NCBI GenBank assembly: GCA_035377365.1
Contig: DAOSSK010000003.1
Coordinates: forward strand, 1-44,891
Origin: Bacilli bacterium
Lineage (GTDB): Bacteria; Bacillota_I; Bacilli_A; ML615J-28; CAG-698
Length of the DNA stretch: 44,891 bases
Reading direction: 5' to 3'
The notes below the pieces were generated by a model. That model had not been told where the DNA came from, did not search any database, and worked only from the letters and a program-made list of their open reading frames with translations. The position numbers were made by a program, and so were the translations under genes. Every line of letters begins with the position of its first letter. Position 1 is the stretch's first letter. Below, piece after piece: positions 9,391 to 31,981 of this stretch.

Positions 9391-9413
9391 AATTAACTCC
9401 TTAAACTCTTTAT

Positions 9414-9442: not shown

Positions 9443-9453
9443 TAAAAGAGAAA

Positions 9454-9487
9454 TAAAAAACCACACGATAAAATCGTGTGGTTTTGT
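9454..9487 (-). terminator. Rho-independent terminator after the Big_2 binding-protein gene
   Basis: A 9-bp GC-containing stem (CCACACGAT / ATCGTGTGG) has a 3-nt loop. A- and T-runs flank it, giving a U-tract on the minus-strand transcript. Confidence 0.8.
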
Positions 9488-9502
9488 TTATATCTTTAAA
9501 TT

Positions 9503-12688: not shown

Positions 12689-12737
12689 GATTTTTCCTCC
12701 TTGTTTGATTTGCTTTAAGTCCTACGACCTCATTATT

Positions 12738-12766
12738 ATTATACTAAATAATACCTAAAATATCAA
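12738..12766 (-). promoter_or_regulatory. Near-consensus sigma-A promoter for the Big_2 binding-protein gene
   Basis: On the minus strand it reads TTGATA, a 17-nt spacer, then TATAAT. An AAGGAGG RBS lies 7 nt before the ATG at 12688. Confidence 0.6.
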
Positions 12767-12792
12767 GAGTTTTTTGAAAACGATATCTAGTT

Positions 12793-16025: not shown

Positions 16026-16028
16026 AAG

Positions 16029-16057
16029 AAAGGTGCTATTTATAAAATAGCACCTTT
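16029..16057 (-). terminator. Terminator-like hairpin between the permease gene and the GH3-NagB gene
   Basis: Arms AAAGGTGCTATT / AATAGCACCTTT form the stem. On the minus transcript the stem is followed by CTTTTGTTT and then directly by the AAGGAGG RBS of the next gene. Confidence 0.5.
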
Positions 16058-16063
16058 TATTTT

Positions 16064-17098
16064 TTATCCCGTGATTCCGGTTCTTTCAATTCCCTCTACA
16101 AATTGTTTTTGAACGAAGAAATAACCGATTAATAACGGTAGCATCATTAGTAGTGCTGCAGTATTCGCAATTAATCCATAGAACATCGGATCGGTCGCTA
16201 AAGCTTCATCGGTTAAAGTATCAAAGATAGGTTTACCTTTGGCTACCCAACCACTAATAACCGTAAACAAACGATCTGTTCCTTCCCCTAAACGAGCTGC
16301 TAATACCGGATATGATTGAACGATACTAAACAATCTCGCAAAGTAATAATCATTCCATTGCCATACAAAAGCAAACAATGCCACAACAACTATCGCTCCT
16401 CTAGCGTTTGGTAACATTACACTCCAGAATGTTCTAATAACACCAGCACCATCCACTTGCGCAGACTCTTCTAATTCTGCTGGGATATTTCTAAAGAACT
16501 GTCTGAAAAGATAAATGAAAATCGCCGATCTTATTCCTTGACCAAATGCTGATAGGATAAATATGGATAATACTGTTCCCATCAACTTTATACCAAAAAA
16601 CGTTGTATTAACTAAGAATAACGATCTTGAAACATGCAAAGTCTCATTCGGTACAACTAAGGTAAAGAGAATAAGATAAAAGAGAATATTACTTCCTTTA
16701 AATCTTAACTTAGCAAAAGCATAACCTGCTATCGCTGATGCCATAACTTGGATAAACATTATTGCTAAAGAAAGAAGTGTAGTTCTTACTAAAGTAGGCC
16801 AATAATCAAGTAAGTCCATAGCTAAACCAATATTAGCTGTACTGAATTCAGATGGAATCCAAACAACTTGAGGATTAGTTAAGTCGTTAGGTGATCTAAA
16901 TGCATAAGAGAATTTTTGGAAAATTGGTAAAAGAATTACAAAACATAATCCAATTAAAATCAGCGTTTTAAAAATTCTACCAGCTCTACCACCAACTTTT
17001 TGAGCATAAACTTTTCTTCTTGTCTTTTTTTCATGCTCTGTTAAAACAGGTTTAGAATAATATTCTTGTGGTACTACAATTTTTTGTTTACTCGTCAT
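16064..17098 (-). CDS. CUT1-family carbohydrate ABC transporter permease
   Basis: It has six TM segments and the EAA loop ESAQVDGAGVIRTFWSVMLPNARG. Confidence 0.85.
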   Translation of the reverse strand: MTSKQKIVVPQEYYSKPVLTEHEKKTRRKVYAQKVGGRAGRIFKTLILIGLCFVILLPIFQKFSYAFRSPNDLTNPQVVWIPSEFSTANIGLAMDLLDYWPTLVRTTLLSLAIMFIQVMASAIAGYAFAKLRFKGSNILFYLILFTLVVPNETLHVSRSLFLVNTTFFGIKLMGTVLSIFILSAFGQGIRSAIFIYLFRQFFRNIPAELEESAQVDGAGVIRTFWSVMLPNARGAIVVVALFAFVWQWNDYYFARLFSIVQSYPVLAARLGEGTDRLFTVISGWVAKGKPIFDTLTDEALATDPMFYGLIANTAALLMMLPLLIGYFFVQKQFVEGIERTGITG

Positions 17099-18323
17099 AA
17101 TAGAACACCACCCTTGATATTACAATCAATACTAAGGATATTAGTATGATTGATGATAAACAGAATAACCAGCTCATAGCCGCATGAATACCATGAGCAG
17201 TAACCATCCCTAAACCACCAGTTAAGGCTACGAAGTTATTTACTGAATAATAATCTAAAATACTTAAGAGATCACTTCGTAAGAAGGAGTCAACAACAGT
17301 ATAAACACCTGCCGTAAGCATTAATGGCGAAACCATTGGGAAAGTAATTTTCCAAAAGATTTCATATTGAGTTGCCCCCTCCATTTTAGCTGCTTCATAT
17401 AGATGTTTAGGAACTGATTGAATTGCACTTAAGAAAATTAAGATTTGAACACCCGAATATGTAATTACATCATAAATCGAGGATGTTGCGTTGCCCAAGA
17501 AGGATACAACACCTCCAGGAACTCCCGCTTCGAGTAAGAAGAAACTAAAGTCAAATCCACCTTGGAGCATTGTACTTGTTGTTTCTGCAGTAGCAGCTGT
17601 TAATTCTGCTCCTGTTTTCATCGCAACTTCAACTGCTTGTGAGTTAAAGATAACTGGCATAAAGAAGACTGCTCTTACAAAACTACGGCCAGGAAATTGT
17701 GTATTTAAAACAACTGCGATAATTAAACTGAAAATTAATACTAATGGTACTTCAAGTAAAGTGTTACCAAATGATGTTAATAGTCTTTGTCTGAAAGTAG
17801 AATGTTGATTCCAAACAAATTGATAGTTATCAAAACCGATATTTTCAGTAATAACTCCCATATTATCTCCCGTAACTGGATTTAATCCTATCGTTTGAAT
17901 ATGAGAAAAACTATAGAAAACAGTTGTAATAAACGGAATTAAGAAGAAATAACCAAAACCGATAACTAGCGGAATGACAAAAACAACTCCCCATAAAGCT
18001 TTCTTTTTTCTATGAGTTAAATTTCTAGTTAGTTTTCTTGGAACAAAAGATAAAACATCTTTTACCTTTACAACTGGTTTTGAAATGTTAATCTTATGGA
18101 AAAAGTCTTGAATTGCCCATTTAGCTTTTTTATACCAAGTAACCTTGTCTCTTTTAGCTTGAGCTTTTTGATCTTTTTGAAGTTGCTTTTGCATCTCCTT
18201 TTCTCTTTTGGCTTGGATTTTATCTTGCTTTGCTTGTTCTTCTAAAGCAATATAATATCTTCTCCTAGCAAAATAGTCATTCCATTTTTCTTTGAAGGTT
18301 TTTTTAGCTTGATTTTGATTCAT
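17088..18323 (-). CDS. CUT1-family carbohydrate ABC transporter permease with a roughly 100-aa K/Q-rich N-terminal extension
   Basis: The EAA loop is EAAKMEGATQYEIFWKITFPMVSP. The N-terminus contains QAKQDKIQAKREKEMQKQLQKDQKAQAKRDK. Confidence 0.85.
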   Translation of the reverse strand: MNQNQAKKTFKEKWNDYFARRRYYIALEEQAKQDKIQAKREKEMQKQLQKDQKAQAKRDKVTWYKKAKWAIQDFFHKINISKPVVKVKDVLSFVPRKLTRNLTHRKKKALWGVVFVIPLVIGFGYFFLIPFITTVFYSFSHIQTIGLNPVTGDNMGVITENIGFDNYQFVWNQHSTFRQRLLTSFGNTLLEVPLVLIFSLIIAVVLNTQFPGRSFVRAVFFMPVIFNSQAVEVAMKTGAELTAATAETTSTMLQGGFDFSFFLLEAGVPGGVVSFLGNATSSIYDVITYSGVQILIFLSAIQSVPKHLYEAAKMEGATQYEIFWKITFPMVSPLMLTAGVYTVVDSFLRSDLLSILDYYSVNNFVALTGGLGMVTAHGIHAAMSWLFCLSSIILISLVLIVISRVVFYYDE

Positions 18324-18325
18324 AA

Positions 18326-21300
18326 TTATTCTCCTTCCAAGATGACATAGTCATTTGCAGCAATGGAAATTCCATTTATGCTATCTAAATATTGGCTATT
18401 TGCATAGTTAATAATAACTCTACAAACAACGCCAAAATCATTTGCATACGTAGATTGAACTACGTTGTCTGTAATGTACTTATGGTCTACTAATCTTCCT
18501 TGGTGAATTCCTGCCTCATTGATTCTTTGATTCATCTCAACAATTTTGTTTTCCCAGTTTAGGAAGTAAGTATTAAAGTACTCTGTATAATCAGTCGTTA
18601 GTAAGGTATTAGTATCTGCATATGAAATTACGAAGTTCAAATTCGAACCTGTCTCCAAAGCTTTTAATAGATACCAACGATAAGATTGTTGATTGTTATA
18701 GTTAACTGTAGTTGTTGTATAGTCAACTAATCCACTTAATGCTAATTGATATAAAGGAATCGAATGCTCTACTGCTGGATATAAAGTTGTAGTAACTGGT
18801 GCATCAACAATAATGTTTGCATATTGTAATGCATAATCAAACGGATTTTTAAGCATTACCTTTTTACCAGACTCTTTAGCTATATCTAATGTAGCTATTT
18901 GATAATCTTGACCAACAACAGTAAAGATTTCTTTTTTATTATCATATGACGAAACTTTTAAGTTACCTAAATCAGATAAATAAATACCTGAAGTATTAAG
19001 TTTCTCATAATTAGCTAAGTATTTATTAAAGTATGATTGATAAAAACGAGGTGAAATGTGATAAATCGGAGCAAGAGAACGATCAAATCTACCAGTAGGT
19101 ACTACATAAGGATAGTATACAGTTTCTGTATTACTTACACTCTTAGCGTTGTACTTTTTCATACCAAATGGATAGTCATATCCTTGGTTTGTAGAAACGT
19201 TAACTTCTGGATAGAAATTAATATTGTTCTCAGTTAAGAATTCACTTAACTTCTTAAATCCTTTTTTTCCACCTAAAACATTAGAAATTTTAATATCTTT
19301 TCTTGCTTTAGGTTCCATCTCATCTTTAGTCCATGATGTATAACTAACACTAAAGTTTTCTACACCTTTTTCTTTTAAGATTTCAATAATCTCTTGTGCT
19401 TCTTCAAAAGTTGTTAGACTATGTGTTTTTTGATAAACAAATCCAGCTGTCATTGTATCTTTTTCAAAAGCACCTAAGAAGTTTAGATTAACTACATTAG
19501 TCTTAGTTTGATCAATTTCTTGCAAATCGTATTTGTTAATTAAATAACTACGATATTGCTTTGCTACCTCAACATAATTAAAGTTAGCATTTGATTTTAC
19601 TTCACCATCTTCAATTGTTTCTGGAACAATGAACTGGAAGTAATATGATAAGTCCGTAGGAATCAACGATTTCGACCATTTTTGATATGAAGATACATAC
19701 CATGATCTTCCAACATTTACAAACTCAGAATCCCTCATACTTACTTCATAGTTAACATAGTTTGAACTACCTGCTGTCCTTGTTCTCATAAAGTCAGCCA
19801 CAATACTATGATGACTTGGAGCAGATTCAATAATACCGATAACCCCTACATTTTCTGTCTTATCTAAATAAGCATACATTGGTAGCATTATTGTTTGTAC
19901 ATCAGCTGGTGCTGTACGTAAGATCTGTGATTTATCAAAACCATAAATCTTTTTCGGTTGATAACCCGCTACGAATTGATCTTGTTTATCACTATTAAAA
20001 CCAATTACAGCTCCACTACCATCAGGGATAATAATTTCCCCTTCAGAGTTATGGTCAAAATTTTTATTGAAGAATGGTAAAATTTCAATACTTGAAATTC
20101 TGAATTCATGAGGATAACCATCTTCACCACTAGCACCTTCTTTAATTGAATCATGTAAAACATCAAACTTTAATCCATTTAATGTAAGCTCGTATTGAAC
20201 TCCAACTTGGAAAACCGCACTTGCTGAAGCAGCACTTTGTTGGTAAATCCTATTTTGCTCTTCTACAATATTCCTTCTTTCTTCGCCTTCAGCTGCTAAG
20301 AAAGGTTCACTAAATTGAGCACGAACTGGATTACCTAGTTGATCATAAACATAGTTTCCTTCTGCGTCTCTTAGTGGAACTCCACCTTGAACTACTGGTC
20401 TACCCTCATAATAAACAATTTTACTATCATCATATTTATCTATAACTGAAGTACTAGTTCTCATATAATTAGTTGGACTAATATCATATAAGAACATATA
20501 TAATTCATTTCTTCTTGATTCTGATGTAGCTTTATTTTCATAAGTCTTAGAACTATTTTCTGTATAGTGAATATAGTTTTTATTTGTTTCGTTAGTAGTT
20601 ATGTTATAGATAAGTTCATAGTTACCATCCATAATTGACTTAATATTAGCTGCCGTTAAGAATGGGTTAACACGAACAGGAGAATCTTTAGTATTGCAGT
20701 TTACCCCTACAACTAACTTTGGTTTTCCCACTTTGTCTATAGTTACTTTACCATCTTCATAATCTGCTTCTGTCCAAAGCAATCCACTTAAATCCCAATA
20801 GCCTAAGAAAGTATTAGTACCATCAACACTATAAGCTGGTGTTGCTTTGCCTAAGCCATTTGCTTCAATATAATTAGCAGCTTCTTCGTTTGTTGTAACA
20901 CCATTTTCACGATAAATTAAATTAAAATGACCTTGTGAATCACGCTCAGATGATACAACTTTCGTAATCCAAGTGTTACCTCTAACTACATCTTCAAAGA
21001 CTGTTCTTTCAATATATTTAGGGAAGAAGTTGTTGGCATTAGTAAATTCACCAACTTCATATAAAACTTGAACTTTATTATCCCCAGCATAATTAATCTT
21101 GTAGTGTTTTGTAGCCGTACCTTTAATTAAGTCCATATAAGCTACACTCTTCGAATATGTTCCTAAGGCTGTTGCTGAAACTTTTCCGCTTTTGCCAAAA
21201 TAACGAAGTCTAAAAACATCACCACTAACTAATTCACCTCTATCATTTGTGTAATCACTTAACTGATATAAAACATTAAATGATTCATACACTAAAAAGC

Positions 21301-22279
21301 CGTTTTTATCTTGAACTTGAACTCCACCAACTTTCTTTGGTGTTCCAGTTGAATTTAAGCCAATCGAAATAGCCGTTGTTTTTTCATTAATATACATTGT
21401 AAATTTTTCATTTTGAGCTACAATTCTTTCTTCCTCAAAAATTGATGTTTTATATTCAATGTTATCTAAAACTGAGTTTAAAACAATTGACTCAGCAATA
21501 TCATTTAAAATACCAACTGCTCTTTGTATATCTTGACGAATATTTGCAAGAACTTCTTCATCAGGATCTTCAATTGATTTTTGAACTATTGCTAGTTCTG
21601 ACATCTTAGTTTCAATTAACTTAATTGGATAATCAAAAACAATAGTATGATTCTCAAAATCTATATTAGTATTATTTGGAAGAACGATTTCTTGATCTTC
21701 CATTTCACCTTCTTCTCCACCTTCTTTAGGTACTTGAATAATAGTTGTTTCATAAGTGTCAAAGAAGTTTAATGCAGTTAATTTATCTACAATCTCTTGA
21801 AAAGCGGCTTTGCCTTTATCTGTTGTTGCTACAACTTTTAAGTTATCAACTCCTGGTTCACCTAAATTATCTTCATAGATGTCCATATCAAAATCACCAG
21901 TTTCAAAAAGTCTAGCAATAGCAAGTTGAGCAATATACATTTCATTAGTAATATCTTCTTCATTATAACCAACATTTAAATTAAGATAGATTGCTGTATT
22001 GCCATAGTAATCTGTTTTTTCAACTTTATAACCTGCAGTCTTTAATGCATTAGCTACATTGTCAATATCACTTGCAGGGAATCCTGCCTTAAAAGTAATT
22101 TTACGATCATATTGTTCTAGATGAGAAAAATCAAGGAGAAATTCTTCAGAATTGAATTCTTCATTATCATAGCTAATAGTTGTTGCTTTTAGGCCACCGA
22201 TAAAGTAAACACCTAAAGTAATACTAATTGCTATAACTAATAGACCTAAAACAATATGTCTTAATCTAATAATTTTCAA
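18326..22279 (-). CDS. Large (1317 aa) N-terminally membrane-anchored extracytoplasmic protein of unknown function (possibly DUF5696-type; unverified)
   Basis: A single N-terminal TM segment (IVLGLLVIAISITLGVYFIGG) is present. The rest is hydrophilic with no motif of a characterised enzyme family that I can name. It is packed between a Yip1-like gene and a permease gene (2-nt gap). Confidence 0.45.
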   Translation of the reverse strand: MKIIRLRHIVLGLLVIAISITLGVYFIGGLKATTISYDNEEFNSEEFLLDFSHLEQYDRKITFKAGFPASDIDNVANALKTAGYKVEKTDYYGNTAIYLNLNVGYNEEDITNEMYIAQLAIARLFETGDFDMDIYEDNLGEPGVDNLKVVATTDKGKAAFQEIVDKLTALNFFDTYETTIIQVPKEGGEEGEMEDQEIVLPNNTNIDFENHTIVFDYPIKLIETKMSELAIVQKSIEDPDEEVLANIRQDIQRAVGILNDIAESIVLNSVLDNIEYKTSIFEEERIVAQNEKFTMYINEKTTAISIGLNSTGTPKKVGGVQVQDKNGFLVYESFNVLYQLSDYTNDRGELVSGDVFRLRYFGKSGKVSATALGTYSKSVAYMDLIKGTATKHYKINYAGDNKVQVLYEVGEFTNANNFFPKYIERTVFEDVVRGNTWITKVVSSERDSQGHFNLIYRENGVTTNEEAANYIEANGLGKATPAYSVDGTNTFLGYWDLSGLLWTEADYEDGKVTIDKVGKPKLVVGVNCNTKDSPVRVNPFLTAANIKSIMDGNYELIYNITTNETNKNYIHYTENSSKTYENKATSESRRNELYMFLYDISPTNYMRTSTSVIDKYDDSKIVYYEGRPVVQGGVPLRDAEGNYVYDQLGNPVRAQFSEPFLAAEGEERRNIVEEQNRIYQQSAASASAVFQVGVQYELTLNGLKFDVLHDSIKEGASGEDGYPHEFRISSIEILPFFNKNFDHNSEGEIIIPDGSGAVIGFNSDKQDQFVAGYQPKKIYGFDKSQILRTAPADVQTIMLPMYAYLDKTENVGVIGIIESAPSHHSIVADFMRTRTAGSSNYVNYEVSMRDSEFVNVGRSWYVSSYQKWSKSLIPTDLSYYFQFIVPETIEDGEVKSNANFNYVEVAKQYRSYLINKYDLQEIDQTKTNVVNLNFLGAFEKDTMTAGFVYQKTHSLTTFEEAQEIIEILKEKGVENFSVSYTSWTKDEMEPKARKDIKISNVLGGKKGFKKLSEFLTENNINFYPEVNVSTNQGYDYPFGMKKYNAKSVSNTETVYYPYVVPTGRFDRSLAPIYHISPRFYQSYFNKYLANYEKLNTSGIYLSDLGNLKVSSYDNKKEIFTVVGQDYQIATLDIAKESGKKVMLKNPFDYALQYANIIVDAPVTTTLYPAVEHSIPLYQLALSGLVDYTTTTVNYNNQQSYRWYLLKALETGSNLNFVISYADTNTLLTTDYTEYFNTYFLNWENKIVEMNQRINEAGIHQGRLVDHKYITDNVVQSTYANDFGVVCRVIINYANSQYLDSINGISIAANDYVILEGE

Positions 22280-22294
22280 CTTATTTTCCTCCTT

Positions 22295-23020
22295 CTAGAA
22301 ATATCGTAAGGATATCTCTCGATATACTGTGTATACGAAACTAAAGATTCTACGGTATAAATCAAATAGCAAAGCAACAGCAAATAGAATTACTATAGCC
22401 GCAACTAAAGTAAACACTGCCATTAAAACACATTTTACTAAACCGTACTCATGAATAGCCATCCAACCAACGAAAAGGAAATAAGCACTACCAAAAGCTC
22501 CAATACCCATAATTAAACTATAGATACCTACTTCTTTAGCTACGATAATATTACTTACAAAAATTCCAAAGAATTTAGTAACTATCATTGGAAATAAAGC
22601 ATAACTAGTAAGTAAGAAGATATCTTTCATCGTTCCTTTACCGTCAAATAGTGTTGTAACTGACCAGTTAGCAACTACTAAAACAACTAAAGGTACAACT
22701 ACATATCCTATTTCCGCTATCGTATTTAAATCAGTAATGTCTCTTTGGTTTACAATAAAACCTGAGTAATGGAAATCCATAATACTTAAAAGAATATAAA
22801 GAACAATGTAAGTAATAGCTAAACCCATCTTTGCTCTTTTATATCTCTTAAATTCATCAAATCCTTTAAAAGGTTGAAATAAAATATAAACAGGAAACTT
22901 AACTCCTTCATTCCATAAAAACTTAAAGAATTGTGAGATTTTTGATAAAACAAGCTTTGCAATATTAAGAAACTTTTCTTTTTTAGAAACTTCAGTTGTC
23001 ATAATTTGTTTTCCTTCCAT
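22295..23020 (-). CDS. Yip1-domain-like polytopic membrane protein
   Basis: It has about five TM segments. The N-terminal PFKGFDEFKRYKRAKMGLAITYIVLY and the later FDGKGTMKDIFLLTSYALFPMI resemble bacterial Yip1-family proteins. Confidence 0.5.
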   Translation of the reverse strand: MEGKQIMTTEVSKKEKFLNIAKLVLSKISQFFKFLWNEGVKFPVYILFQPFKGFDEFKRYKRAKMGLAITYIVLYILLSIMDFHYSGFIVNQRDITDLNTIAEIGYVVVPLVVLVVANWSVTTLFDGKGTMKDIFLLTSYALFPMIVTKFFGIFVSNIIVAKEVGIYSLIMGIGAFGSAYFLFVGWMAIHEYGLVKCVLMAVFTLVAAIVILFAVALLFDLYRRIFSFVYTVYREISLRYF

Positions 23021-24801
23021 TAATCTTCACCCACAATTCTAATAATATCTTTCCTTGGTAGCTCTGCTATCTTACTTCTAGCAACTAAAATTAAAGCTGC
23101 TCCGATTGCTAAAACAGCAAATGCTGTAAAGTTAAGTTTAATTTCACGATCACGATATCTTTGATAAGCATTTGAATAATAACTAGTTTCAAATCCTAAA
23201 CGGAAGTTAGCCATAGCATCTTGATATCTATTTTCATTTAATAATGATTTACCAATACCAATATAAGCAAGCTCATAGTTAGGGTTTTCTGAAACTACGT
23301 TCTTCCACTCTTCTGCTGCTTCAGCTAATTGACCATTATATTGATATTTAACTGCTTTATTAATAATCTTTGCAATATCAGTTGGTTCAAAACGAATAAC
23401 AGCTTTGTTGTATTTATCAAGTACTAAGATATCTTCACCTTGATAACGAACAGCAGTTGGGCTATTGATGTTATTTAACTCTGGTCCTGAATTTCCTGAA
23501 ATGTAAAGTAAGTTACCTTCGTCATCATAAGTAAATAATCTTCCTGCTTTTTCGTCTGCTACTGTATAAACACCATAGTCATTAATTGCAATACCTGCAA
23601 ATCTTGATGAAATCGAGATTCCATCGCTTGCACTACTACCTTCTATGGTAAATGCAATATCCCCTACTGGTAAATGATAACCATTTTTAACTAAAGTATC
23701 TTTACCTGATGGGTTAATCTTTTTGATCATTGTTGTTGCATCTTCACTATAAGTAGAGATCTTTGTTGCTCTAGAAACAGTATAGATAAAGCCATCATCA
23801 TCAATTGATAAATTTCTAAACTCAGTATTTACAATCGCTGTTTGTTGTTTTAGTTGTTCTTCTGTCGAGAAGTTACGCCAAAACTTATCCCAAGCGGATA
23901 ATGTTGTATAGTTAACACCAACATAACTCATGAACTCGCCAAAGTAGCTCATTTGCATAATACCTTCAAAAACAGACTCAGAAATTACAAACATTCTTCC
24001 TGTTGAGTCAGTAACCATTTTTAAAGGCGAAAATGTCTTACCTTCAAAAACAATTGATTCTGGTTGACATACAACTTGAATAACGTGGTAATCAACTGGA
24101 TCTAAAAGTAAAATTTGGTTATTTCCTTTATCACAAATATATAAAACATCTTGATATTCACCTTCAATAATGAATCCACCTTCATCTCTTAAAGGTCTTA
24201 AAGCACGATAAACACCAGAAATATTTTTTGGTTGGATATACCATCTTTGACTATCCCCCCTACTTTCTACTGGAGTTTGAAGTGGTGCTGTAAATGTTAA
24301 CCAGTCAACTTTATTCTTAAATAGTTCATTACTAGTATCTGTACCAGACTTAACTCTATCATATTCATAACGAGTAATTGTATCTGGTCTAAACTCATAA
24401 CGAGTAATAATTTCACCTTCATAAAACCTATCTACAGTTTCACCTTTAAGGCGATATCTTCTTGTTCTTCTTGATGCATCGCTACCTTGTTTAAGTGTTA
24501 ATGTACTATCAAAAACATATAAATGGTTAGAGATTGAATCAATAATGTAAATTGTTTCTTCACCTGTAACTGGGTGTTTAAATATAAACAAGTCTTCTGG
24601 AGAAGTAAATTGGTCAGCTGGTATTCCTTCCCAGGCATTTGATGTAATCGTATAGATTCCATCAGTACTTGCACTCATTCCCACTGTTGAGTGGATAGCT
24701 GTTCCTTTATGGTCATAAGTATATCCACCCTTAGCATTAACACTAACAACAGCAGAACCAAGTAGCAATAAAGCAATTAGCAAATAAAATACTTTCTTCA
24801 T
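23020..24801 (-). CDS. Secreted NHL-type beta-propeller protein with a TPR segment and a C-terminal TM anchor
   Basis: The signal peptide ends VSVNA-KG. About six blade-like repeats are visible (for example SPEDLFIF...IYIIDSISNHLYVFD, VLYICDKGNNQILLLD, GVYTVADEKAGRLFTYD, ILVLDKYNKAVIRF). A TPR-like stretch YQYNGQLAEAAEEWKNVVSENPNYELAYIGIGKSLL follows, then the TM segment FTAFAVLAIGAALILVA. Confidence 0.5.
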   Translation of the reverse strand: MKKVFYLLIALLLLGSAVVSVNAKGGYTYDHKGTAIHSTVGMSASTDGIYTITSNAWEGIPADQFTSPEDLFIFKHPVTGEETIYIIDSISNHLYVFDSTLTLKQGSDASRRTRRYRLKGETVDRFYEGEIITRYEFRPDTITRYEYDRVKSGTDTSNELFKNKVDWLTFTAPLQTPVESRGDSQRWYIQPKNISGVYRALRPLRDEGGFIIEGEYQDVLYICDKGNNQILLLDPVDYHVIQVVCQPESIVFEGKTFSPLKMVTDSTGRMFVISESVFEGIMQMSYFGEFMSYVGVNYTTLSAWDKFWRNFSTEEQLKQQTAIVNTEFRNLSIDDDGFIYTVSRATKISTYSEDATTMIKKINPSGKDTLVKNGYHLPVGDIAFTIEGSSASDGISISSRFAGIAINDYGVYTVADEKAGRLFTYDDEGNLLYISGNSGPELNNINSPTAVRYQGEDILVLDKYNKAVIRFEPTDIAKIINKAVKYQYNGQLAEAAEEWKNVVSENPNYELAYIGIGKSLLNENRYQDAMANFRLGFETSYYSNAYQRYRDREIKLNFTAFAVLAIGAALILVARSKIAELPRKDIIRIVGED

Positions 24802-24804
24802 AGC

Positions 24805-25800
24805 TTAATCCTTTAGTCCACTTGTAGCCATTGTTTCAAGCATGCTACTTTGGGAAATAATAAACATTGTTATTGGTACGGTAATCATAATTAAGCTTAC
24901 CGCAGCTAATGTACCCGATCTTGCAGCTCCAGCTGTAGCTATTTGCGATAGGGCATAACTTACCATCTTAAAGTCTTCACGATAAATATACATCGCTCCT
25001 TGTGTATTCCATAAACTTTGGAAAACTAAAATAATTAAAGTAATCCAAGCTGGTTTTACTAAAGGCATAACGATAGTCCAAAAAATCTTAAAATCGCCAG
25101 CACCATCTAACTTCGCTGATTCAATGTACGAAGTCGGTACTTGAGACATAAACTGTTTCATTAAGAATAATCCTAGGGATGATCCTATCATCGGCAAGAT
25201 TAAAGCTAGTGGATTATCAATTAAACCAATCCAGTTAAAGATAATGTAGTTAGGAATAGAAGTTACTGCTCCTGGGAACATTAAAGAATAAACGATAATT
25301 GTAAAGATAATCGTTCCACCTGGAATCTTATATTTTGCAAGTGGATAAGCACACATTGAGGCAATAACTACGTGTCCTACTGTTCCAAGTATTGTTACCA
25401 TAACTGTATTAAATAAATATCTAGCAAATGGAACAGTTGAGTTAGCTAGTGCAACACTCAAATCTGTGAAGTTATCTAAAGTTGGGTTTCTTACAATAAT
25501 GTTTGGTGGGAACTTGAATAACTCATCTAGAGGTTTAAAGGCATTGTTTATTACTAATACTAGTGGTAATGCACTTAAAATTCCCGCTAAACATAGGAAG
25601 AAAAATAGTACTAAGTCGCCCCCAACTGATCTATTAATTCTTTTTCTTTTTTTACTACGGCGATGTACTTTAATCGTGCTTATTTCTGCGAAAGGTCGTG
25701 AGTCAATACGTTTAGCACGTTTGGCGTTACGAAGAGCTTTTTTATCTTCTTTTAGCTGAGCTTTTTCAGCTGCAGTTAATTTTTTTCTTGCTTCAGCCAT
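24805..25800 (-). CDS. CUT1-family carbohydrate ABC transporter permease
   Basis: The EAA loop is ESAKLDGAGDFKIFWTIVMPLVKP. It has a basic N-terminal extension of about 60 aa. Confidence 0.85.
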   Translation of the reverse strand: MAEARKKLTAAEKAQLKEDKKALRNAKRAKRIDSRPFAEISTIKVHRRSKKRKRINRSVGGDLVLFFFLCLAGILSALPLVLVINNAFKPLDELFKFPPNIIVRNPTLDNFTDLSVALANSTVPFARYLFNTVMVTILGTVGHVVIASMCAYPLAKYKIPGGTIIFTIIVYSLMFPGAVTSIPNYIIFNWIGLIDNPLALILPMIGSSLGLFLMKQFMSQVPTSYIESAKLDGAGDFKIFWTIVMPLVKPAWITLIILVFQSLWNTQGAMYIYREDFKMVSYALSQIATAGAARSGTLAAVSLIMITVPITMFIISQSSMLETMATSGLKD

Positions 25801-26795
25801 TATGATCCCACCCTTCCAATAATTTTTCTAATTAATTTATTTAATGCTATCGCCGAAACGAAAAGGATTGTGGCAATCGCTGAAGCATAACCCATCTCAA
25901 ATCTTTGTCCACCATAGTCTTGTAAGTGGTTTACAATCGTATGACCGGCATAGTTAATTGAAGGGAAACCAGCTAAAGCAGTAGTTACAGCACCAACACC
26001 AAGTGATGCTGAGATTGATAATACAGCACTAAATAAAAGCTGTGGTCTCATGTTTGGTAAAGTAATATACCATAACTCTTGCCAACGGTTTTTAACACCA
26101 TCAACTGCTGCTGCTTCGTATTGTGATCTATCGACACCTTTTAGACCAGCAATTAAGGTTAAGAAGTTAACCCCTAAGCTCATCCAAAGCTGAACAATAA
26201 TTACAATCGGCAATATATATTTTTCTGTTTGAAGCCAAAGAATAGGTTCTCTAATAAATCCCCAATTGATTAAGAAGGAATTGGCATAACCATAAATATC
26301 ACTAGAGAAAATCAAACTCCAAATTGTAATCGCTCCTCCAGAAATAGATGGAGCATAGAAAATTAAAGTTATAAATGCTCTTAGTTTATCTGGTAATTCA
26401 TTAATTAACCAAGCAAGGACAAAGGAAATTATGTATCCAAGTGGCCCAGTAATAATCGCAATAATTAAAGTATTTTGCACAGCTACAATAAAAATTGGAT
26501 CATCTAATAATAGTGTTAAGTAGTTTGACCAACCGATAAATTTTGGAGCCTCAAGTAAGTTAAAATATGTAAAACTTAAGAAGAAGCTCATTAAAACAGG
26601 TAAAACAGTAAATAAGAAAAATAATGCTAAGTAAGGAATCATCATTAAATATAATGTTTTATTTAACCAAAATTTTCTTCTTGCTGGCTTTTTCCTGCTC
26701 CAAACATCTAAACGGCGGGCAGTATCTTCTTTCCACTCACGAAAAGATCTTCTTTTCTTGATAGCTTGATTATCTGCTATAACTTTTTCAGCCAT
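25800..26795 (-). CDS. CUT1-family carbohydrate ABC transporter permease
   Basis: The EAA loop is EAAAVDGVKNRWQELWYITLPNMRP. It has six TM segments. Confidence 0.85.
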   Translation of the reverse strand: MAEKVIADNQAIKKRRSFREWKEDTARRLDVWSRKKPARRKFWLNKTLYLMMIPYLALFFLFTVLPVLMSFFLSFTYFNLLEAPKFIGWSNYLTLLLDDPIFIVAVQNTLIIAIITGPLGYIISFVLAWLINELPDKLRAFITLIFYAPSISGGAITIWSLIFSSDIYGYANSFLINWGFIREPILWLQTEKYILPIVIIVQLWMSLGVNFLTLIAGLKGVDRSQYEAAAVDGVKNRWQELWYITLPNMRPQLLFSAVLSISASLGVGAVTTALAGFPSINYAGHTIVNHLQDYGGQRFEMGYASAIATILFVSAIALNKLIRKIIGRVGS

Positions 26796-26797
26796 AC

Positions 26798-29700
26798 TTA
26801 TTCATCCTCTCTAGTTATAAAACCAAATTCTTTTCTTTTCTTTGTTAACTCGGCATTAATAGTATCTACATAAGTTAGTAGTACTTCCCTAGGATTTAAC
26901 TTTTCGTTAATCGTTTTTCTAAAGGCATTCTCTACGTTTCTTCCTGTATAGTAACCACCAGCTACTTCTGGAATACCAATTGTATTAACCCATTGTGATA
27001 ATAGAATTTCTTTTTCTTCTGCTGTCCAAGCCATACTCTTGAATGCTTCCATATTAGCTGTATTATGACGAGCTGCTGAACCTAAAATTGACTCTAATTC
27101 CTGAGCATAAGATAGTTGAGTTGGGGCTGATGTAACCCACTTTAAGAATTCCCAACTAGACTCAGGATCTTTTGCTTGTTTCATAATAATACCTGCTGTT
27201 CCGCTTGATGCACCCTTGTTATTGATAATGCCTGTTTCTGGATTTCTCACACCTGGAATCGGCGCAAAGCCCCATTTACCAGTAATCTCTGGTGCGAATA
27301 CAGCTAAGTAGTTAAAAGTTGTATAATCTACAACTCCAATTGGAGTTTCACCAGTTCTAAATCTATTTAAGAAGCTTGCAGCTGTCGGGAAAGAATAATC
27401 TGTATAATACTTAACCCAAGTTTCAAATGATTGCATTGCTTCTTCACTATCTAAGGCAGTAGCTGTTTTATCTTCAGTATAGAAATCCCCACCATTTTGG
27501 AATAGCATTGATGAGAACACTTGGTTTACTGCTGCTGATGCCCCAACTGCACTTAGTGGTAAATAGAACTGTAAGTTAGAAATTTGTAACTCTGTTACTA
27601 AGCTTGTAACTTCATCCCAAGTTTTAGGAACTGTCCAACCTCTTTCTTGAAAAATATCTTTACGATAGAAAGTAACTAAGAAAGATTGCGTGATTGGTAA
27701 AGCATAAAACTCTAAATCATGAATATCTGCTGTCTTTTGTAAAGCATAAGGTGTCATTGCACTATCAGCAAATCTTGGATTAGCTTCACCATCTAACCAT
27801 ACCTTAACGCCATATTCAGTAACTTCGTATCGGAAGTCATCAAATTGGGTAATATCATATGCAGCATTTCTTAAAGCATAGTTTACAGGTAATCCGTTAT
27901 AAACGTTCAAGGCTACATCTGGTCCTGTACCAGCAAGTGTAGCCGGTAATAATACTCCGGGATCTACAACCTTTAAAATAACGTTAATTCCTTTTTGATT
28001 AACAAATGTTGTATCACACAAAGTCTTCATTGCGTTAGCTTGTTCCCTACCGGCAACAGCACTAGTTAAAAACCATACTTCAATTTCTTTATCAAAACCT
28101 TCAGCGTTTGTTACTCCAATTGATTGATAATCAAAGAAGAAAGTCATAAAGAAAGCTTTAATATCAAACCACACATTACTAAACCAGTCAGCATTTGGTT
28201 TTGGTAATTCTGCATCACTACTAGAAACATATAATGCTTCAACTGTTAGTGATTGTTCTTGAATACTAGTAATCCAAGTTCCAAGTGAAGATAAGTTTTG
28301 AACAAACGTTCCTAATCTTTCTTGAATTGTTCTTGGCTTTTCTAAAAATGATTCAAGCTGAATTGCCATTGTATCTAGTACTGATACTAAACTTCCTTTT
28401 TCTCCTGAAAGTTCAGTAATATAAGCTGACACTTCTCTCAATTCTTGAGCATTTGCTTCAAAACATTCTAGTAAACCAACAATACGAGCATTGTCTCCAT
28501 ATAAGTGATATTCTTGATATGGGTCTGGGTTTACTGTAGTTATTGAGATAATTTGTAAGTACATATTATTTAAACTATTAACTACATTTCTAACTTTGTT
28601 TATAGGACTACCATAAGCCCCAAGTGTAGATTCTAGTCTAATTGTATTAATACCTTCATGGAAATAGAATTTATAGTTTTCTTCACTATTTCCCATCGTA
28701 ACTAATCGCCAATTTGTACTGTAATTAAAATTAGAGCTATTAGCTTCGATAAATGGAATTTCACCATTAATATATAATCTTCTTGTAGAGAAAAGTCCAC
28801 GAGCTGTATTTTGTTTAGCCTTAAAACTAAGCTCATACATTCCTGCTTCTTCTACATCAACTTCCCATTCAATCCAATCTCCAGGTGCTGTCCATTTTGT
28901 ACCACCAATTGAGTTTAGTGTTACTTTAACTGGATGCGATGGAGTGTTTGTTGGAGAAGTACGATCAGCAATTGCATATAGTGTTGGAGATGAACGTTTT
29001 GTTGAATCTTCAGCTTCAATTTGTAACATTACTTCACTTGGTGCACTTTTATCTTGATGTAGATTTAAATAATCTTGATAAGTAACGATTGCTGGAACAG
29101 ATTCTAGTTTTAACTCTACAATACTCATATTCTCTCTAACAGACTCAAAAGTAATAGTATTAGTTCCTGATTTAAAATGGAACATATAAGGATCTATTAC
29201 ATAACCAGTATAATCTCTTACATAAGCTGTACTTAAATCGAATACTTCCATTTGTGATGGTTTCATATCATTACCATTAATATCTTGAATAATTGCTGCT
29301 CTATCTTTCCACATTCTATAAAATCTAATGTGTCCGGCAGTATCAAATGGTAACTCGCCATTAATTAAAACTCTTCTTTCAATATTAGCTCCACCACTAG
29401 TTTCTCTAACATTTAAAGTTTCATCACGAGATTTCTCTGCATAATATACTAAACTCAAATAGTAGAATCCAGCCTCTGAAACATCAACAGAGAAAGTAAC
29501 ACTTCCTGTTTCTGATGTATAATACCCAGCTCTAGTTTCTCCATTTGGTAAAACAATTGAAGTATACGGATCATCTGCAGCTAGATACTTAAAATCTATT
29601 GATTCTGGCGATGCAACTCCAGCAGCTAAATCAACTGCTATACTTTCGATTTGTGGTGTTACAAGTAATGGCTTAATATCTTTATCAAAATCAAGTACTT

Positions 29701-30058
29701 CTAACCTTTGAGGATCAGTAATACCTGTAGCTTTAGCTCTTAAGTAATTATTGTAATCACCTTCTGGATATAACTCTTCTGGGATTGTTGAATCAGATGT
29801 TGTTCTATCAGGTCTAAAACTCTTCACAATTGAAACTACTAAAATAGTCATGATTAAAACTAAAATTGTAAGCCAAATTGCTCGTTTAATCATCTTCACA
29901 CGATTAGTTCTACGCTTTAACCTACTTTCGCTTGAATCAACTAAATCATAGTTAACAGTAGTTATCTTAACATCTTCAATTGCTACTGCTTCTTTTTGTT
30001 GTTCTACTTGTTGAACATCTTCAACTTTTTCTTGAGATTTTTTCTTATTTTTACTCAT
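26798..30058 (-). CDS. Membrane-anchored giant binding protein: cytoplasmic tail, TM anchor, two CBM-like beta-sandwich repeats, a helical linker, and a C-terminal ABC solute-binding domain
   Basis: The TM segment AIWLTILVLIMTILVVSIV follows a roughly 58-aa charged tail. The internal repeat is EAGFYYLSLVYYA...RRVLINGELPF...GTNTITFES versus EAGMYELSFKAKQ...RRLYINGEIPF...GINTIRLES. The C-terminal roughly 430 aa look like a family-1 sugar SBP (IEVWFL..., FYRKDIFQERGWTVPKTWDE). Confidence 0.65.
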   Translation of the reverse strand: MSKNKKKSQEKVEDVQQVEQQKEAVAIEDVKITTVNYDLVDSSESRLKRRTNRVKMIKRAIWLTILVLIMTILVVSIVKSFRPDRTTSDSTIPEELYPEGDYNNYLRAKATGITDPQRLEVLDFDKDIKPLLVTPQIESIAVDLAAGVASPESIDFKYLAADDPYTSIVLPNGETRAGYYTSETGSVTFSVDVSEAGFYYLSLVYYAEKSRDETLNVRETSGGANIERRVLINGELPFDTAGHIRFYRMWKDRAAIIQDINGNDMKPSQMEVFDLSTAYVRDYTGYVIDPYMFHFKSGTNTITFESVRENMSIVELKLESVPAIVTYQDYLNLHQDKSAPSEVMLQIEAEDSTKRSSPTLYAIADRTSPTNTPSHPVKVTLNSIGGTKWTAPGDWIEWEVDVEEAGMYELSFKAKQNTARGLFSTRRLYINGEIPFIEANSSNFNYSTNWRLVTMGNSEENYKFYFHEGINTIRLESTLGAYGSPINKVRNVVNSLNNMYLQIISITTVNPDPYQEYHLYGDNARIVGLLECFEANAQELREVSAYITELSGEKGSLVSVLDTMAIQLESFLEKPRTIQERLGTFVQNLSSLGTWITSIQEQSLTVEALYVSSSDAELPKPNADWFSNVWFDIKAFFMTFFFDYQSIGVTNAEGFDKEIEVWFLTSAVAGREQANAMKTLCDTTFVNQKGINVILKVVDPGVLLPATLAGTGPDVALNVYNGLPVNYALRNAAYDITQFDDFRYEVTEYGVKVWLDGEANPRFADSAMTPYALQKTADIHDLEFYALPITQSFLVTFYRKDIFQERGWTVPKTWDEVTSLVTELQISNLQFYLPLSAVGASAAVNQVFSSMLFQNGGDFYTEDKTATALDSEEAMQSFETWVKYYTDYSFPTAASFLNRFRTGETPIGVVDYTTFNYLAVFAPEITGKWGFAPIPGVRNPETGIINNKGASSGTAGIIMKQAKDPESSWEFLKWVTSAPTQLSYAQELESILGSAARHNTANMEAFKSMAWTAEEKEILLSQWVNTIGIPEVAGGYYTGRNVENAFRKTINEKLNPREVLLTYVDTINAELTKKRKEFGFITREDE

Positions 30059-31913: not shown

Positions 31914-31952
31914 TCATTCCTTTCGTTTTGAGTTTATATACTATATAACAAA

Positions 31953-31981
31953 ATTATACTACAAAACCACTTTTTTTTCAA
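31953..31981 (-). promoter_or_regulatory. Near-consensus sigma-A promoter for the GH20/ABC importer operon
   Basis: On the minus strand it reads TTGAAA, a 17-nt spacer, then TATAAT. It lies between the terminator copy at 31997-32023 and the GH20 start. Confidence 0.55.

What the first reader, a model, noticed from the sequence alone, without database searches (positions are those of the whole stretch)
18326..22279. 1317-aa membrane-anchored orphan protein wedged between two permease sets
This is the largest ORF in the window. It has one N-terminal TM helix, and the rest is hydrophilic and rich in Tyr, Asn and Asp, like carbohydrate-active proteins. The C-terminal half has alternating beta/alpha-like stretches, for example IIIPDGSGAVIGF, VNLNFLGAFEKD, FSVSYTSWTKDEMEP, INFYPEVNV and SIPLYQLALSGLVDY. 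These could form a TIM-barrel glycosidase-like core, but I cannot place it in a CAZy family by eye. It is a candidate novel depolymerase or scaffold.
Basis: inference. Interest (0 to 1): 0.65.

Follow-up and report, generated by a model that had tools for sequence, protein, structure and literature searches.

The report
Glycosidase-shaped anchor protein of twin sugar importer
The big "orphan" gene is a membrane-anchored member of the large, unstudied DUF5696 family: it has the shape of a sugar-cutting enzyme but lacks that enzyme's key catalytic residue, and it is a fixed part of a conserved two-transporter cassette that here lets a wall-less bacterium feed on other bacteria's cell-wall sugars.

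Summary
The ORF is real: minus strand, 18326-22279, 1317 aa, TTG start behind an AGGAGG box, one N-terminal TM helix. It is not an orphan. Residues 683-1311 match Pfam DUF5696 (E=6e-122), and the family has about 3,400 clusters at 50% identity.

An AF2 model (pLDDT 89) shows a beta-sandwich, a (beta/alpha)8 barrel and a C-terminal beta-sandwich. The closest solved folds are the GH129-like DagB and GH129 NagBb, then GH101, GH36 and GH31. Profile-profile homology to DagB is 98-99% probable.

However, the DagB/GH129 nucleophile Asp aligns to N1106 (acidic in 12/221 family members). The acid/base Glu aligns to K1144.

The gene sits in a fixed cassette: giant binding protein, 2 permeases, propeller/TPR protein, Yip1, DUF5696, 2 permeases. 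This order recurs beside different glycan enzymes. Here the cassette lies inside a peptidoglycan/amino-sugar salvage locus of an uncultured Acholeplasmataceae bacterium. Digester metatranscriptomes show it transcribed as a ~16-kb, nine-gene operon.

Best reading: a type-II-anchored, glycosidase-derived glycan-holding subunit of a twin ABC importer. A non-canonical hydrolase remains a live rival. No paper mentions DUF5696.

The parts
18326..22279 (-). DUF5696-family protein, 1317 aa (stop codon included)
   Evidence: ORF list and translation. Pfam PF18952 hit on residues 683-1311, E=5.7e-122.
22187..22279 (-). Residues 1-31: short basic cytoplasmic stub (MKIIRLRH) and single TM helix (~9-31); type II anchor
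   Evidence: Kyte-Doolittle scan finds only this one segment above 1.6.
21436..22186 (-). Residues ~32-281: lineage-specific N-terminal extension, with tandem beta-alpha-beta-beta-alpha-beta (ferredoxin-like) units and then a long helix
   Evidence: AF2 model me8fedf68a9a1 secondary structure. Present in only about 10% of aligned homologues, i.e. the closest five. Only weak ferredoxin-like Foldseek hits, E>0.03.
20234..21435 (-). Residues ~282-682: first hairpin of the DUF5696 N-domain (IVAQNEKFTMYINEKTTAISI, like DagB IVLENEKLNISVDSKTGCFSV), followed by a ~370-aa inserted, mostly beta region with no match among solved folds
   Evidence: HMMER domain 1 against 5opq. hhalign block and occupancy profile. 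Model pLDDT is mostly above 85. No PDB fold match at E<0.01.
18329..20233 (-). Residues 683-1317: DUF5696 core, made of a beta-sandwich (with the invariant P752-D-G-S-G756 and Y779-G-x-D782), a (beta/alpha)8 barrel (~930-1255) and a C-terminal beta-sandwich (~1262-1316)
   Evidence: AF2 model m798e6ed75cb6, pLDDT 88.9, pTM 0.86. Foldseek against PDB. Conservation tables.
22295..23020 (-). Yip1-domain polytopic membrane protein (241 aa), 15 nt upstream of the DUF5696 start
   Evidence: Pfam PF04893, E=1e-11. Fused to the propeller/TPR protein in loci L003 and L004.
23020..24801 (-). Signal-peptide protein with NHL-like propeller and TPR regions and a C-terminal TM (593 aa); its stop overlaps the Yip1 start
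   Evidence: Weak TPR and NHL-type hits. The same position is conserved in L001, L003, L004 and L043-L045.
24805..26795 (-). ABC permease pair A (two genes, 331 aa each)
   Evidence: PF00528.
26798..30058 (-). Giant TM-anchored solute-binding protein (1086 aa; SBP_bac_1 at residues 679-981)
   Evidence: Pfam and NCBIfam hits.
30051..31913 (-). GH20 beta-N-acetylhexosaminidase without a signal peptide; first gene of the operon
   Evidence: PF00728 and PF02838.
16064..18323 (-). ABC permease pair B (411 and 344 aa); the first starts 2 nt after the DUF5696 stop codon and the two overlap by 11 nt
   Evidence: PF00528. Coordinates.
31953..31981 (-). Promoter-like site TTGAAA-17-TATAAT (11 of 12 matches) in front of the GH20 gene
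   Evidence: Consensus scan. The RNA contigs of two metatranscriptomes both end at 31932.
16029..16057 (-). Terminator-like hairpin after permease B2
   Evidence: Consensus scan. The RNA contig of run X7 ends at 16092.

Best explanation
The ORF encodes a type-II membrane-anchored, outward-facing protein of the DUF5696 family. Its core is a distant homologue of GH129-like/GH129/GH101 retaining glycosidases: an N-terminal beta-sandwich, a (beta/alpha)8 barrel and a C-terminal beta-sandwich. It is a fixed subunit-like component of a conserved cassette: giant binding protein, permease pair A, propeller/TPR protein, Yip1 membrane protein, DUF5696, permease pair B. In this uncultured Acholeplasmataceae bacterium the cassette is the peptidoglycan/N-acetylhexosamine version. 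It is co-transcribed with a cytoplasmic GH20. The surrounding genes are NagZ, NagB, NamZ, MupG, AnmK, MurQ and stem-peptide-handling genes. Most likely mechanism (inferred): the ectodomain keeps the sugar-binding pocket of its glycosidase ancestors but has lost their Asp nucleophile. It therefore holds glycan chains or oligosaccharides at the membrane surface without cutting them. Here these would be cell-wall-derived GlcNAc/MurNAc oligomers. It would hand them to, or organise, the two adjacent ABC importers together with the propeller/TPR and Yip1 proteins. This resembles the inactive GH13-like ectodomains of SLC3 heavy chains, which serve their partner transporters. Shown: gene, topology, family, fold, homology, loss of the canonical catalytic pair by alignment, conserved synteny and transcription. 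Inferred: binding without hydrolysis, physical complex and substrate identity.
For: Family and fold:
- PF18952 at E=5.7e-122.
- AF2 pLDDT 88.9.
- Foldseek hits: 5opq E=8e-25, 5wzn E=9e-23, GH101 about 1e-13 to 5e-15.
- Family profile against PDB sequences: 5opq at E=2.9e-9.
- hhalign: probability 99%/97.9%, E=2e-17/5e-13.

Catalytic residues:
- DagB D202, D486, E517 and E531 are each essential, and D486 equals the NagBb nucleophile D435 (PMC5698469).
- D486 aligns to N1106. The alignment is gap-free between the anchors D483/D1103 and Y492/Y1112.
- E517 aligns to K1144, anchored by Y526/Y1153.
- Family-wide, position 1106 is N109/S58/T13 and acidic in 12/221. Position 1144 is acidic in 54/221. 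Both are acidic in 3/221.
- D486N is the substitution used to trap a Michaelis complex (title of PDB 8rzk).

Pocket retained and tuned:
- W983, Y1149, Y1153, D1186, Y1187 and N1193 sit after barrel strands and are conserved.
- In the 73-member HexNAc-context clade, N1106 is kept in 72/73, D1148 in 70/73 and D1103 in 66/73. The rest of the family has S/N/T, A/D and D/S/T at those positions.

Cassette:
- The same gene order is found at 44, 38, 36, 34, 27, 24 and 22% identity.
- Neighbours are HexNAc/peptidoglycan enzymes in five loci, but GH95/GH130 or GH109/SASA/GDSL in others.
- The propeller/TPR protein is fused to Yip1 in L003 and L004.

Coupling: there are 15-nt and 2-nt gaps around the gene.

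Transcription:
- One RNA contig, 15215/16092-31932, appears in each of two digester metatranscriptomes.
- It is bounded by a promoter-like site and a terminator-like hairpin.
Against: - No coordinates were available, so the residue equivalences rest on profile alignments with moderate column confidence, not on a 3D superposition.
- The family keeps near-invariant carboxylates: D753 (acidic in 220/221) and D782 (214/221). HMMER pairs D782 with DagB's essential D202, although hhalign aligns that stretch differently.
- D1171 and D1186 are also largely conserved, so a re-wired active site is possible.
- All recognisable glycosidases of this locus lack signal peptides. DUF5696 is therefore the only glycosidase-shaped protein outside the cell, which would suit an extracellular cutter.
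- Binding, complex formation and the substrate are not demonstrated by anything here.
Confidence: 0.5

Rival explanations
1. It is an active extracellular glycoside hydrolase with a re-wired or substrate-assisted active site. It would cut environmental cell-wall or chitin-like glycans into oligosaccharides small enough for the two ABC importers. In the HexNAc-context clade, Asn1106 could orient the substrate's 2-acetamido group. A nearby Asp (D1103, D1148 or D782) would then act as the general acid/base.
For: - The fold and homology are those of real glycosidases.
- Two near-invariant Asp residues, D753 and D782, are kept. D782 pairs with DagB's essential D202 in the HMMER alignment.
- In the HexNAc clade D1103, N1106, D1148, D1171 and D1186 are almost invariant.
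- No other exported glycosidase-like protein is encoded in the operon. GH20, GH3, NamZ, MupG and GHL10 all lack signal peptides.
- The sequence diverges with glycan context, as enzyme specificity would.
Against: - The nucleophile position is N/S/T in about 82% of the family and acidic in 5%.
- No acid/base position in the barrel is conserved family-wide.
- The same cassette position is kept beside non-HexNAc glycans, where substrate assistance cannot apply.
- The GH129/GH101 relatives act on HexNAc substrates yet still use an Asp nucleophile.
Confidence: 0.3
2. It is the substrate-delivery partner of the second permease pair. It sits in the gene slot where CUT1 operons normally carry the binding protein, and it would dock on permeases B1/B2 in place of, or together with, a classical binding protein.
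For: - The gene order is binding protein, permease, permease for pair A and DUF5696, permease, permease for pair B, with a 2-nt gap to permease B1.
- This adjacency holds in every locus examined, including L002, where only Yip1, DUF5696 and the two permeases lie on the fetched end of the contig.
Against: - A separate Big_2-plus-binding-domain lipoprotein (9503-12688) lies downstream and could serve pair B. Big_2 proteins hold the same downstream position in the orthologous loci.
- No GH-fold protein is known to replace an ABC binding protein.
- Nothing here tests docking.
Confidence: 0.1
3. It has a role unrelated to nutrient import, for example a surface adhesin or envelope-maintenance protein that merely shares an operon.
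For: - The large lineage-specific N-terminal extension and the ~370-aa insertion have no known fold.
- No function has been tested for any family member.
Against: Strict conservation of its position between the Yip1 gene and a permease pair across 22-44% identity and across different glycan contexts, together with co-transcription.
Confidence: 0.07

Closest known systems
DagB / ZgGH129 (ZGAL_3152), alpha-1,3-(3,6-anhydro)-D-galactosidase of Zobellia galactanivorans, PDB 5opq and 8rzk ('GH129-like')
   Same: - Same three-domain layout: distorted beta-sandwich, TIM barrel and C-terminal Ig-like domain.
- Best Foldseek hit, E=8e-25, TM 0.55-0.58.
- Detectable sequence homology: hmmsearch 2.9e-9, hhalign 99%.
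- The conserved Asp in the N-domain (D782) pairs with the essential D202 in the HMMER alignment.
   Different: - Only 16-17% identity over the hhalign-aligned columns.
- Nucleophile D486 aligns to N1106, and E517 aligns to K1144.
- DagB is a soluble periplasmic dimer of a Bacteroidota PUL. This protein is TM-anchored, carries about 650 extra N-terminal residues and belongs to an ABC-importer cassette of Bacillota/Mollicutes.
GH129 alpha-N-acetylgalactosaminidase NagBb (Bifidobacterium bifidum, PDB 5wzn) and GH101 endo-alpha-N-acetylgalactosaminidases (EngBF 2zxq, SpGH101 3ecq/5a55)
   Same: GH13-like barrel flanked by beta-sandwiches. Foldseek E=9e-23 for GH129 and about 1e-13 to 5e-15 for GH101. 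These enzymes act on HexNAc-containing glycans.
   Different: - The profile hit to NagBb is weak (E=0.015).
- The catalytic Asp435 equivalent is missing here (via DagB D486).
- No Pfam GH129 or GH101 hit.
SLC3 heavy chains 4F2hc/CD98hc and rBAT of heteromeric amino-acid transporters (functional analogy, from general knowledge)
   Same: Single-pass type II anchor, plus a large extracellular glycosidase-derived (GH13-like) barrel with a C-terminal beta-sandwich. The domain is not used for catalysis and serves a polytopic transporter partner.
   Different: - Eukaryotic, and linked to SLC7 light chains rather than ABC permeases.
- No sequence relationship was tested.
- Association with a transporter is inferred here from synteny only.
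CUT1-family ABC oligosaccharide importers of Gram-positive polysaccharide utilisation loci, and Yip1-type accessory proteins such as B. subtilis YknW of YknWXYZ (from general knowledge)
   Same: Binding protein plus two BPD_transp_1 permeases, with no ATPase gene in the operon. A Yip1-domain membrane protein travels with an ABC system.
   Different: Two permease pairs in one operon, with three extra envelope proteins (propeller/TPR, Yip1, DUF5696) fixed between them. The searches here found no description of this arrangement.

Membership tests
Pfam DUF5696 (PF18952) | Score above the curated gathering threshold over most of the model | tested here: met
   408.7 bits against a cut-off of 25.6. 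Residues 683-1311 cover model positions 15-612 of 612.
Pfam DUF5696 (PF18952) | Family-invariant motifs G747, P-D-G-S-G (752-756), Y779-G-x-D782, A906, T956, P1175, N1193 | tested here: met
   All are present in the window protein and 97-100% conserved in 221 aligned members (D782: 207 D plus 7 E).
CAZy GH129 / GH129-like (NagBb, DagB) | Three-domain fold: beta-sandwich, (beta/alpha)8 barrel, C-terminal beta-sandwich | tested here: met
   AF2 secondary structure. Foldseek hits 5opq at 8e-25 and 5wzn at 9e-23.
CAZy GH129 / GH129-like (NagBb, DagB) | Catalytic nucleophile Asp after barrel strand 4 (NagBb D435 = DagB D486) | tested here: not met
   Aligns to N1106 in both global and local hhalign. 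Acidic in 12/221 family members. The test is alignment-based; no 3D superposition was possible.
CAZy GH129 / GH129-like (NagBb, DagB) | Second catalytic carboxylate (DagB E517) | tested here: not met
   Aligns to K1144. Acidic in 54/221 family members.
CAZy GH129 / GH129-like (NagBb, DagB) | Essential N-domain Asp (DagB D202) | tested here: inconclusive
   hmmsearch pairs D202 with D782, but hhalign aligns this stretch differently.
CAZy GH129 / GH129-like (NagBb, DagB) | Recognition by a family sequence model | tested here: not met
   No Pfam glycoside-hydrolase model is hit, even at E<=10. One relative (P0075) has a sub-threshold GH97 match (25 bits against a 32.5 cut-off).
CAZy GH129 / GH129-like (NagBb, DagB) | Glycosidase activity | not testable with these tools
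   Needs an enzyme assay.
CAZy GH101 | GH13-like barrel with an Asp/Glu pair on strands 4 and 5 | tested here: inconclusive
   Fold similarity only (E about 1e-13 to 5e-15, TMq about 0.4). No residue-level alignment was made.
Conserved twin-ABC-importer cassette (binding protein, 2 permeases, propeller/TPR with or without Yip1 fusion, DUF5696, 2 permeases) | Fixed gene order around the DUF5696 gene across distant homologues | tested here: met
   The window plus L001, L003, L004, L043, L044 and L045 show the full order. L002 shows Yip1, DUF5696 and 2 permeases at a contig end.
Conserved twin-ABC-importer cassette (binding protein, 2 permeases, propeller/TPR with or without Yip1 fusion, DUF5696, 2 permeases) | Co-transcription of the cassette genes | tested here: met
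   A single metatranscriptome contig spans GH20 to permease B2 in two runs, with ends near the predicted promoter and terminator. Caveat: these are assembled contigs, not raw reads.
Conserved twin-ABC-importer cassette (binding protein, 2 permeases, propeller/TPR with or without Yip1 fusion, DUF5696, 2 permeases) | Physical complex of the encoded proteins | not testable with these tools
   Only indirect support: propeller/TPR-Yip1 fusions in L003 and L004, and tight gene spacing.

The most novel reading that the evidence does not exclude
DUF5696, the propeller/TPR protein and Yip1 form, with two ABC permease pairs and a giant binding protein, a previously undescribed multi-subunit glycan-capture and import machine of monoderm and wall-less bacteria. 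It would be a functional counterpart of the Bacteroidota Sus apparatus. Within it, the DUF5696 ectodomain is either a glycosidase-derived pseudoenzyme that threads or holds the glycan, or the founding member of a new glycoside hydrolase family with a non-Asp-nucleophile mechanism. In this genome the machine would let a wall-less Acholeplasma relative live on other bacteria's peptidoglycan.
Probability: 0.3. Interest if true: 0.85.

Novelty: new variant of a known kind. Interest (0 to 1): 0.55.

Why it matters
DUF5696 is a large family: about 3,400 clusters at 50% identity. No paper in the searched library mentions it. It always travels with two sugar importers, a Yip1 membrane protein and a propeller protein.

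This work shows three things. The family descends from GH129/GH101-type glycosidases. It has replaced their nucleophile. Its pocket residues change with the glycan context.

That turns a "domain of unknown function" into a testable hypothesis about how Gram-positive and wall-less bacteria capture complex glycans at the membrane.

This copy also has ecological interest. It sits in a transcribed operon inside a complete peptidoglycan and stem-peptide salvage locus of a ~1.3-Mb Acholeplasmataceae genome from anaerobic digesters. This suggests necromass (cell-wall) scavenging by an organism of a wall-less lineage.

Tried and rejected
- **'Orphan' label.** Rejected by Pfam, by 88 indexed homologues and by 3,414 representative hits.
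- **Direct sequence search of the whole protein against PDB.** Only a chance capsid hit at E=0.42.
- **Profile of the barrel's second half (A2) against PDB sequences.** No hit even at E<=10. The catalytic region therefore had to be aligned by hhalign against a DagB-clade alignment, which I built from genome loci fetched with a 216-aa fragment printed by HMMER.
- **Pfam at E<=10 for GH129, GH101 or GH97 signals in the window protein.** None found. The sub-threshold PF10566 match of P0075 is not a second domain, because it lies inside the DUF5696 barrel.
- **Fold search of the N-terminal half.** No significant PDB match, so no CBM or lectin assignment is possible.
- **Long homologues.** No informative domain fusions.
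- **Literature.** 'DUF5696' returns 0 papers. The search for Yip1, NHL, solute-binding protein and permease found nothing relevant.
- **NCBIfam.** No family for this protein.
- **Tools unavailable.** Model coordinates are not exposed, so I could not test spatial clustering of D753, D782, D1103, D1171 and D1186, or superpose the model on 8rzk.

Full report
**Observation**

The coordinates hold a real gene, but on the minus strand. The plus strand is full of stops. The minus strand carries one 1317-codon frame, 18326-22279, which is the largest ORF in the window. The start is TTG, eight bases behind AGAAGGAGG, and no other start codon occurs in the first 60 codons.

There is one hydrophobic segment (residues ~9-31), preceded by K2/R5/R7. 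This predicts a type II anchor with about 1,285 residues outside the cell. Asn, Tyr and Asp make up 7.9, 7.1 and 6.0% of the protein.

The gene is followed within 2 nt by two ABC permease genes. Upstream of it lie, in order, a Yip1 gene, a propeller/TPR gene and a second permease pair. "Between two permease sets" is therefore right, with two extra genes on the upstream side.

**Not an orphan**

- Residues 683-1311 match Pfam DUF5696 (PF18952) at E=5.7e-122.
- The word-indexed search returned 88 homologues, named at best "DUF5696 domain-containing protein" or "hypothetical protein", from Bacilli and Acholeplasmataceae MAGs.
- An exhaustive phmmer search of 1.84 billion cluster representatives found 3,414 proteins at E<=1e-3 and 2,725 at E<=1e-10.
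- No paper in the searchable library contains "DUF5696".

**Fold and ancestry**

An AF2 model of residues 620-1317, built with a 50-sequence alignment, has pLDDT 88.9 and pTM 0.86. It shows a beta-sandwich, an eight-fold beta/alpha barrel and a C-terminal beta-sandwich.

Foldseek against the PDB ranks the hits as follows:
- GH129-like 3,6-anhydro-D-galactosidase DagB: 5opq at E=8e-25, 8rzk at E=3e-24.
- GH129 NagBb: 5wzn at E=9e-23.
- Then GH101 (EngBF, SpGH101), the Flavonifractor galactosaminidase, GH36 and GH31.

The relationship is also visible in sequence. A profile of the family hits 5opq at E=2.9e-9.

To align the catalytic region I fetched DagB orthologues from genome contigs, using the 216-aa fragment that HMMER had printed. 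I translated 12 full-length genes. In the Zobellia uliginosa orthologue, positions 202, 486, 517 and 531 are D, D, E and E, which matches the published numbering. I then ran hhalign against a 221-member DUF5696 alignment. This gave probability 99% and E=2e-17 in global mode, and 97.9% and 5e-13 in local mode.

**Is it an enzyme?**

The DagB paper (PMC5698469) reports that D202, D486, E517 and E531 are each required for activity. D202 comes from an N-domain helix of the other monomer. D486 is the equivalent of the NagBb nucleophile D435.

In both hhalign modes the alignment gives:
- D483 to D1103.
- D486 to N1106, with no gap between the D483/D1103 and Y492/Y1112 anchors.
- E517 to K1144, anchored by Y526/Y1153.
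- E531 next to D1159.

Across 221 family members:
- Position 1106 is N109/S58/T13 and acidic in only 12.
- Position 1144 is acidic in 54.
- Both positions are acidic in 3.
- D1103 is Asp in 133.

The canonical catalytic pair of the nearest characterised relatives is therefore absent, both here and family-wide. Asp-to-Asn at this site is the substitution that crystallographers used to trap a Michaelis complex (title of 8rzk).

Some caution is needed. The family's best-conserved residues include two carboxylates in the N-domain: D753 in the P-D-G-S-G loop (acidic in 220/221) and D782 (214/221). HMMER pairs D782 with DagB's essential D202, although hhalign aligns that stretch differently. D1171 and D1186 are also largely conserved.

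Model coordinates are not exposed by the tools. I could not check which of these residues line the pocket.

**Pocket behaviour**

Residues placed just after barrel strands are conserved: W983, Y1149, Y1153, D1186, Y1187 and N1193.

In the 73 sequences that are at least 36% identical to the query over the domain, three further positions are almost fixed: N1106 (72/73), D1148 (70/73) and D1103 (66/73). The homologues of this identity range whose loci I fetched all lie in the HexNAc/peptidoglycan context. The remaining members have S/N/T, A/D and D/S/T at those positions.

This is the pattern of a retained ligand site that is tuned to the substrate. It fits either a binding module or an unconventional enzyme.

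**Domain map of this copy**

- **Residues 57-281** occur only in the five closest homologues. They model as tandem ferredoxin-like units plus a long helix, with only weak fold hits.
- **Residues ~283-305** (IVAQNEKFTMYINEKTTAISI) resemble the first hairpin of the DagB N-domain.
- **Residues ~310-680** form a confidently modelled, mostly beta insertion with no PDB match. It is shared by the ~1,050-1,300-aa homologues.

**Context**

The locus is one long minus-strand array. Reading in the direction of transcription:
- LysA, an M19 dipeptidase, a beta-lactamase-fold hydrolase, a GNAT and GHL10.
- The operon: GH20, giant binding protein, 2 permeases, propeller/TPR, Yip1, DUF5696, 2 permeases.
- GH3-NagB, a GNAT, a Big_2-plus-binding-domain lipoprotein and a membrane protein.
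- NamZ, GH3-MupG, a BadF-type kinase, AnmK and MurQ.

This is a peptidoglycan and amino-sugar salvage set. All the recognisable glycosidases lack signal peptides.

Housekeeping proteins of the window cluster with "Acholeplasma sp.", "Acholeplasmataceae bacterium" and "Bacilli bacterium" MAG proteins, on contigs of up to 1.33 Mb. The DNA is found in digester, sludge and bioreactor metagenomes.

**Conserved cassette**

- Orthologous loci L001 (44% identity), L044 (38%), L043 (36%) and L045 (34%) repeat GH20, binding protein, 2 permeases, propeller, Yip1, DUF5696, 2 permeases, GH3 and NagB; the GNAT, Big_2, DUF624, NamZ and GH3/MupG genes follow in most of them.
- Distant homologues keep the core order beside quite different enzymes. 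L002 (27%) has GH95 and GH130. L004 (24%) has GH109, SASA and GDSL. L003 (22%) has none.
- In L003 and L004 the propeller/TPR protein is fused to Yip1.
- Earlier notes of this scan describe the same cassette in at least 274 genomes and likewise found no publication. I treated these notes as leads and re-derived the fold, the loss of catalytic residues and the synteny independently.

**Transcription**

Two anaerobic-digester metatranscriptomes each contain one contig that covers 15215-31932 or 16092-31932 at about 99.8% identity. Both contigs stop at 31932. That is 21 nt inside a promoter-like TTGAAA-17-TATAAT site (31981-31953, minus strand).

One contig stops at 16092, next to a terminator-like hairpin at 16057-16029. 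Upstream sequence is assembled separately and at a different depth. This supports a ~15.9-kb, nine-gene mRNA running from GH20 to permease B2. The caveat is that these are assembled contigs, not raw reads.

**Mechanism, with odds**

- **Best reading (0.5).** The protein is a glycosidase-derived, non-hydrolysing glycan-holding ectodomain. It acts with the propeller/TPR and Yip1 proteins as an accessory module of two ABC importers. Here the cargo would be cell-wall-derived HexNAc/MurNAc oligosaccharides, which the cytoplasmic GH20, NagZ, NamZ and MupG then dismantle. The closest functional analogy is the inactive GH13-like ectodomain of the SLC3 heavy chains.
- **Main rival (0.3).** It is a true extracellular hydrolase with a re-wired or substrate-assisted site. 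In its favour are the invariant D753 and D782 and the lack of any other exported glycosidase in the operon.
- **Minor rivals.** It may be a surrogate binding protein for permease pair B (0.1), or have a role unrelated to import (0.07).

**Verdict**

The protein is a member of the known but uncharacterised family DUF5696, and a divergent, nucleophile-less variant of the GH129/GH101 fold. It is embedded in an apparently undescribed twin-importer cassette.

Noticed in passing
window 16029-31981 (minus strand): Nine genes, GH20 to permease B2, appear to be one ~15.9-kb transcription unit. A promoter-like TTGAAA-17-TATAAT lies at 31981-31953 and a terminator-like hairpin at 16057-16029. Single metatranscriptome contigs end at 31932 and at 16092/15215.
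   Followed up: partly
window 1871-16025 and 32706-38211: The flanks encode a full cytoplasmic peptidoglycan-salvage set: NamZ, GH3-MupG fusion, GH3-NagB fusion, AnmK, MurQ, BadF-type kinase, GHL10, beta-lactamase-fold hydrolase, M19 dipeptidase and DAP decarboxylase. There is no PTS and no regulator. The host is an Acholeplasmataceae-type (presumably wall-less) organism from digesters.
   Followed up: partly
window 9503-12688 (minus strand): A Big_2 x4 plus binding-domain lipoprotein lies in a region richer in G+C (0.37 against about 0.30). The RNA contig covering 13000-15221, which runs on below 13000 towards this gene, has 4-10 times the depth of the cassette contig.
   Followed up: no
window 17088-18323, 24805-26795, 16064-17098: All four permeases carry Lys/Arg/Glu/Gln-rich N-terminal cytoplasmic tails. 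The tail is about 110 aa in the 411-aa permease B1. The giant binding protein also has a ~60-aa charged tail before its TM helix.
   Followed up: no
window 20234-21350 (residues ~310-680 of the ORF): A confidently modelled insertion of about 370 aa sits inside the N-terminal beta-sandwich. It has no PDB fold match and carries invariant Tyr, Asn, Gly and Pro positions. It is shared by the ~1,050-1,300-aa homologues; those whose loci I fetched all lie in the GH20/NagZ/NamZ context. It may be a substrate-specific module.
   Followed up: partly
window 21436-22186 (residues ~32-281): The N-terminal extension is found only in the five closest homologues. It models as tandem ferredoxin-like beta-alpha-beta-beta-alpha-beta units followed by a ~28-residue helix. 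Fold echoes are weak (ACT, KH, PstA, SecDF P1).
   Followed up: partly
loci L003 and L004: The propeller/TPR protein and Yip1 are a single fused polypeptide (746 and 701 aa) in distant versions of the cassette. This argues that the two proteins, which are separate here, work as one unit.
   Followed up: no
window 40732-41148 (plus strand): This is the only sizeable plus-strand ORF outside the shadows of minus-strand genes (138 aa, GTG start). It lies in the gap between the thymidine kinase and LemA genes. It was not examined.
   Followed up: no
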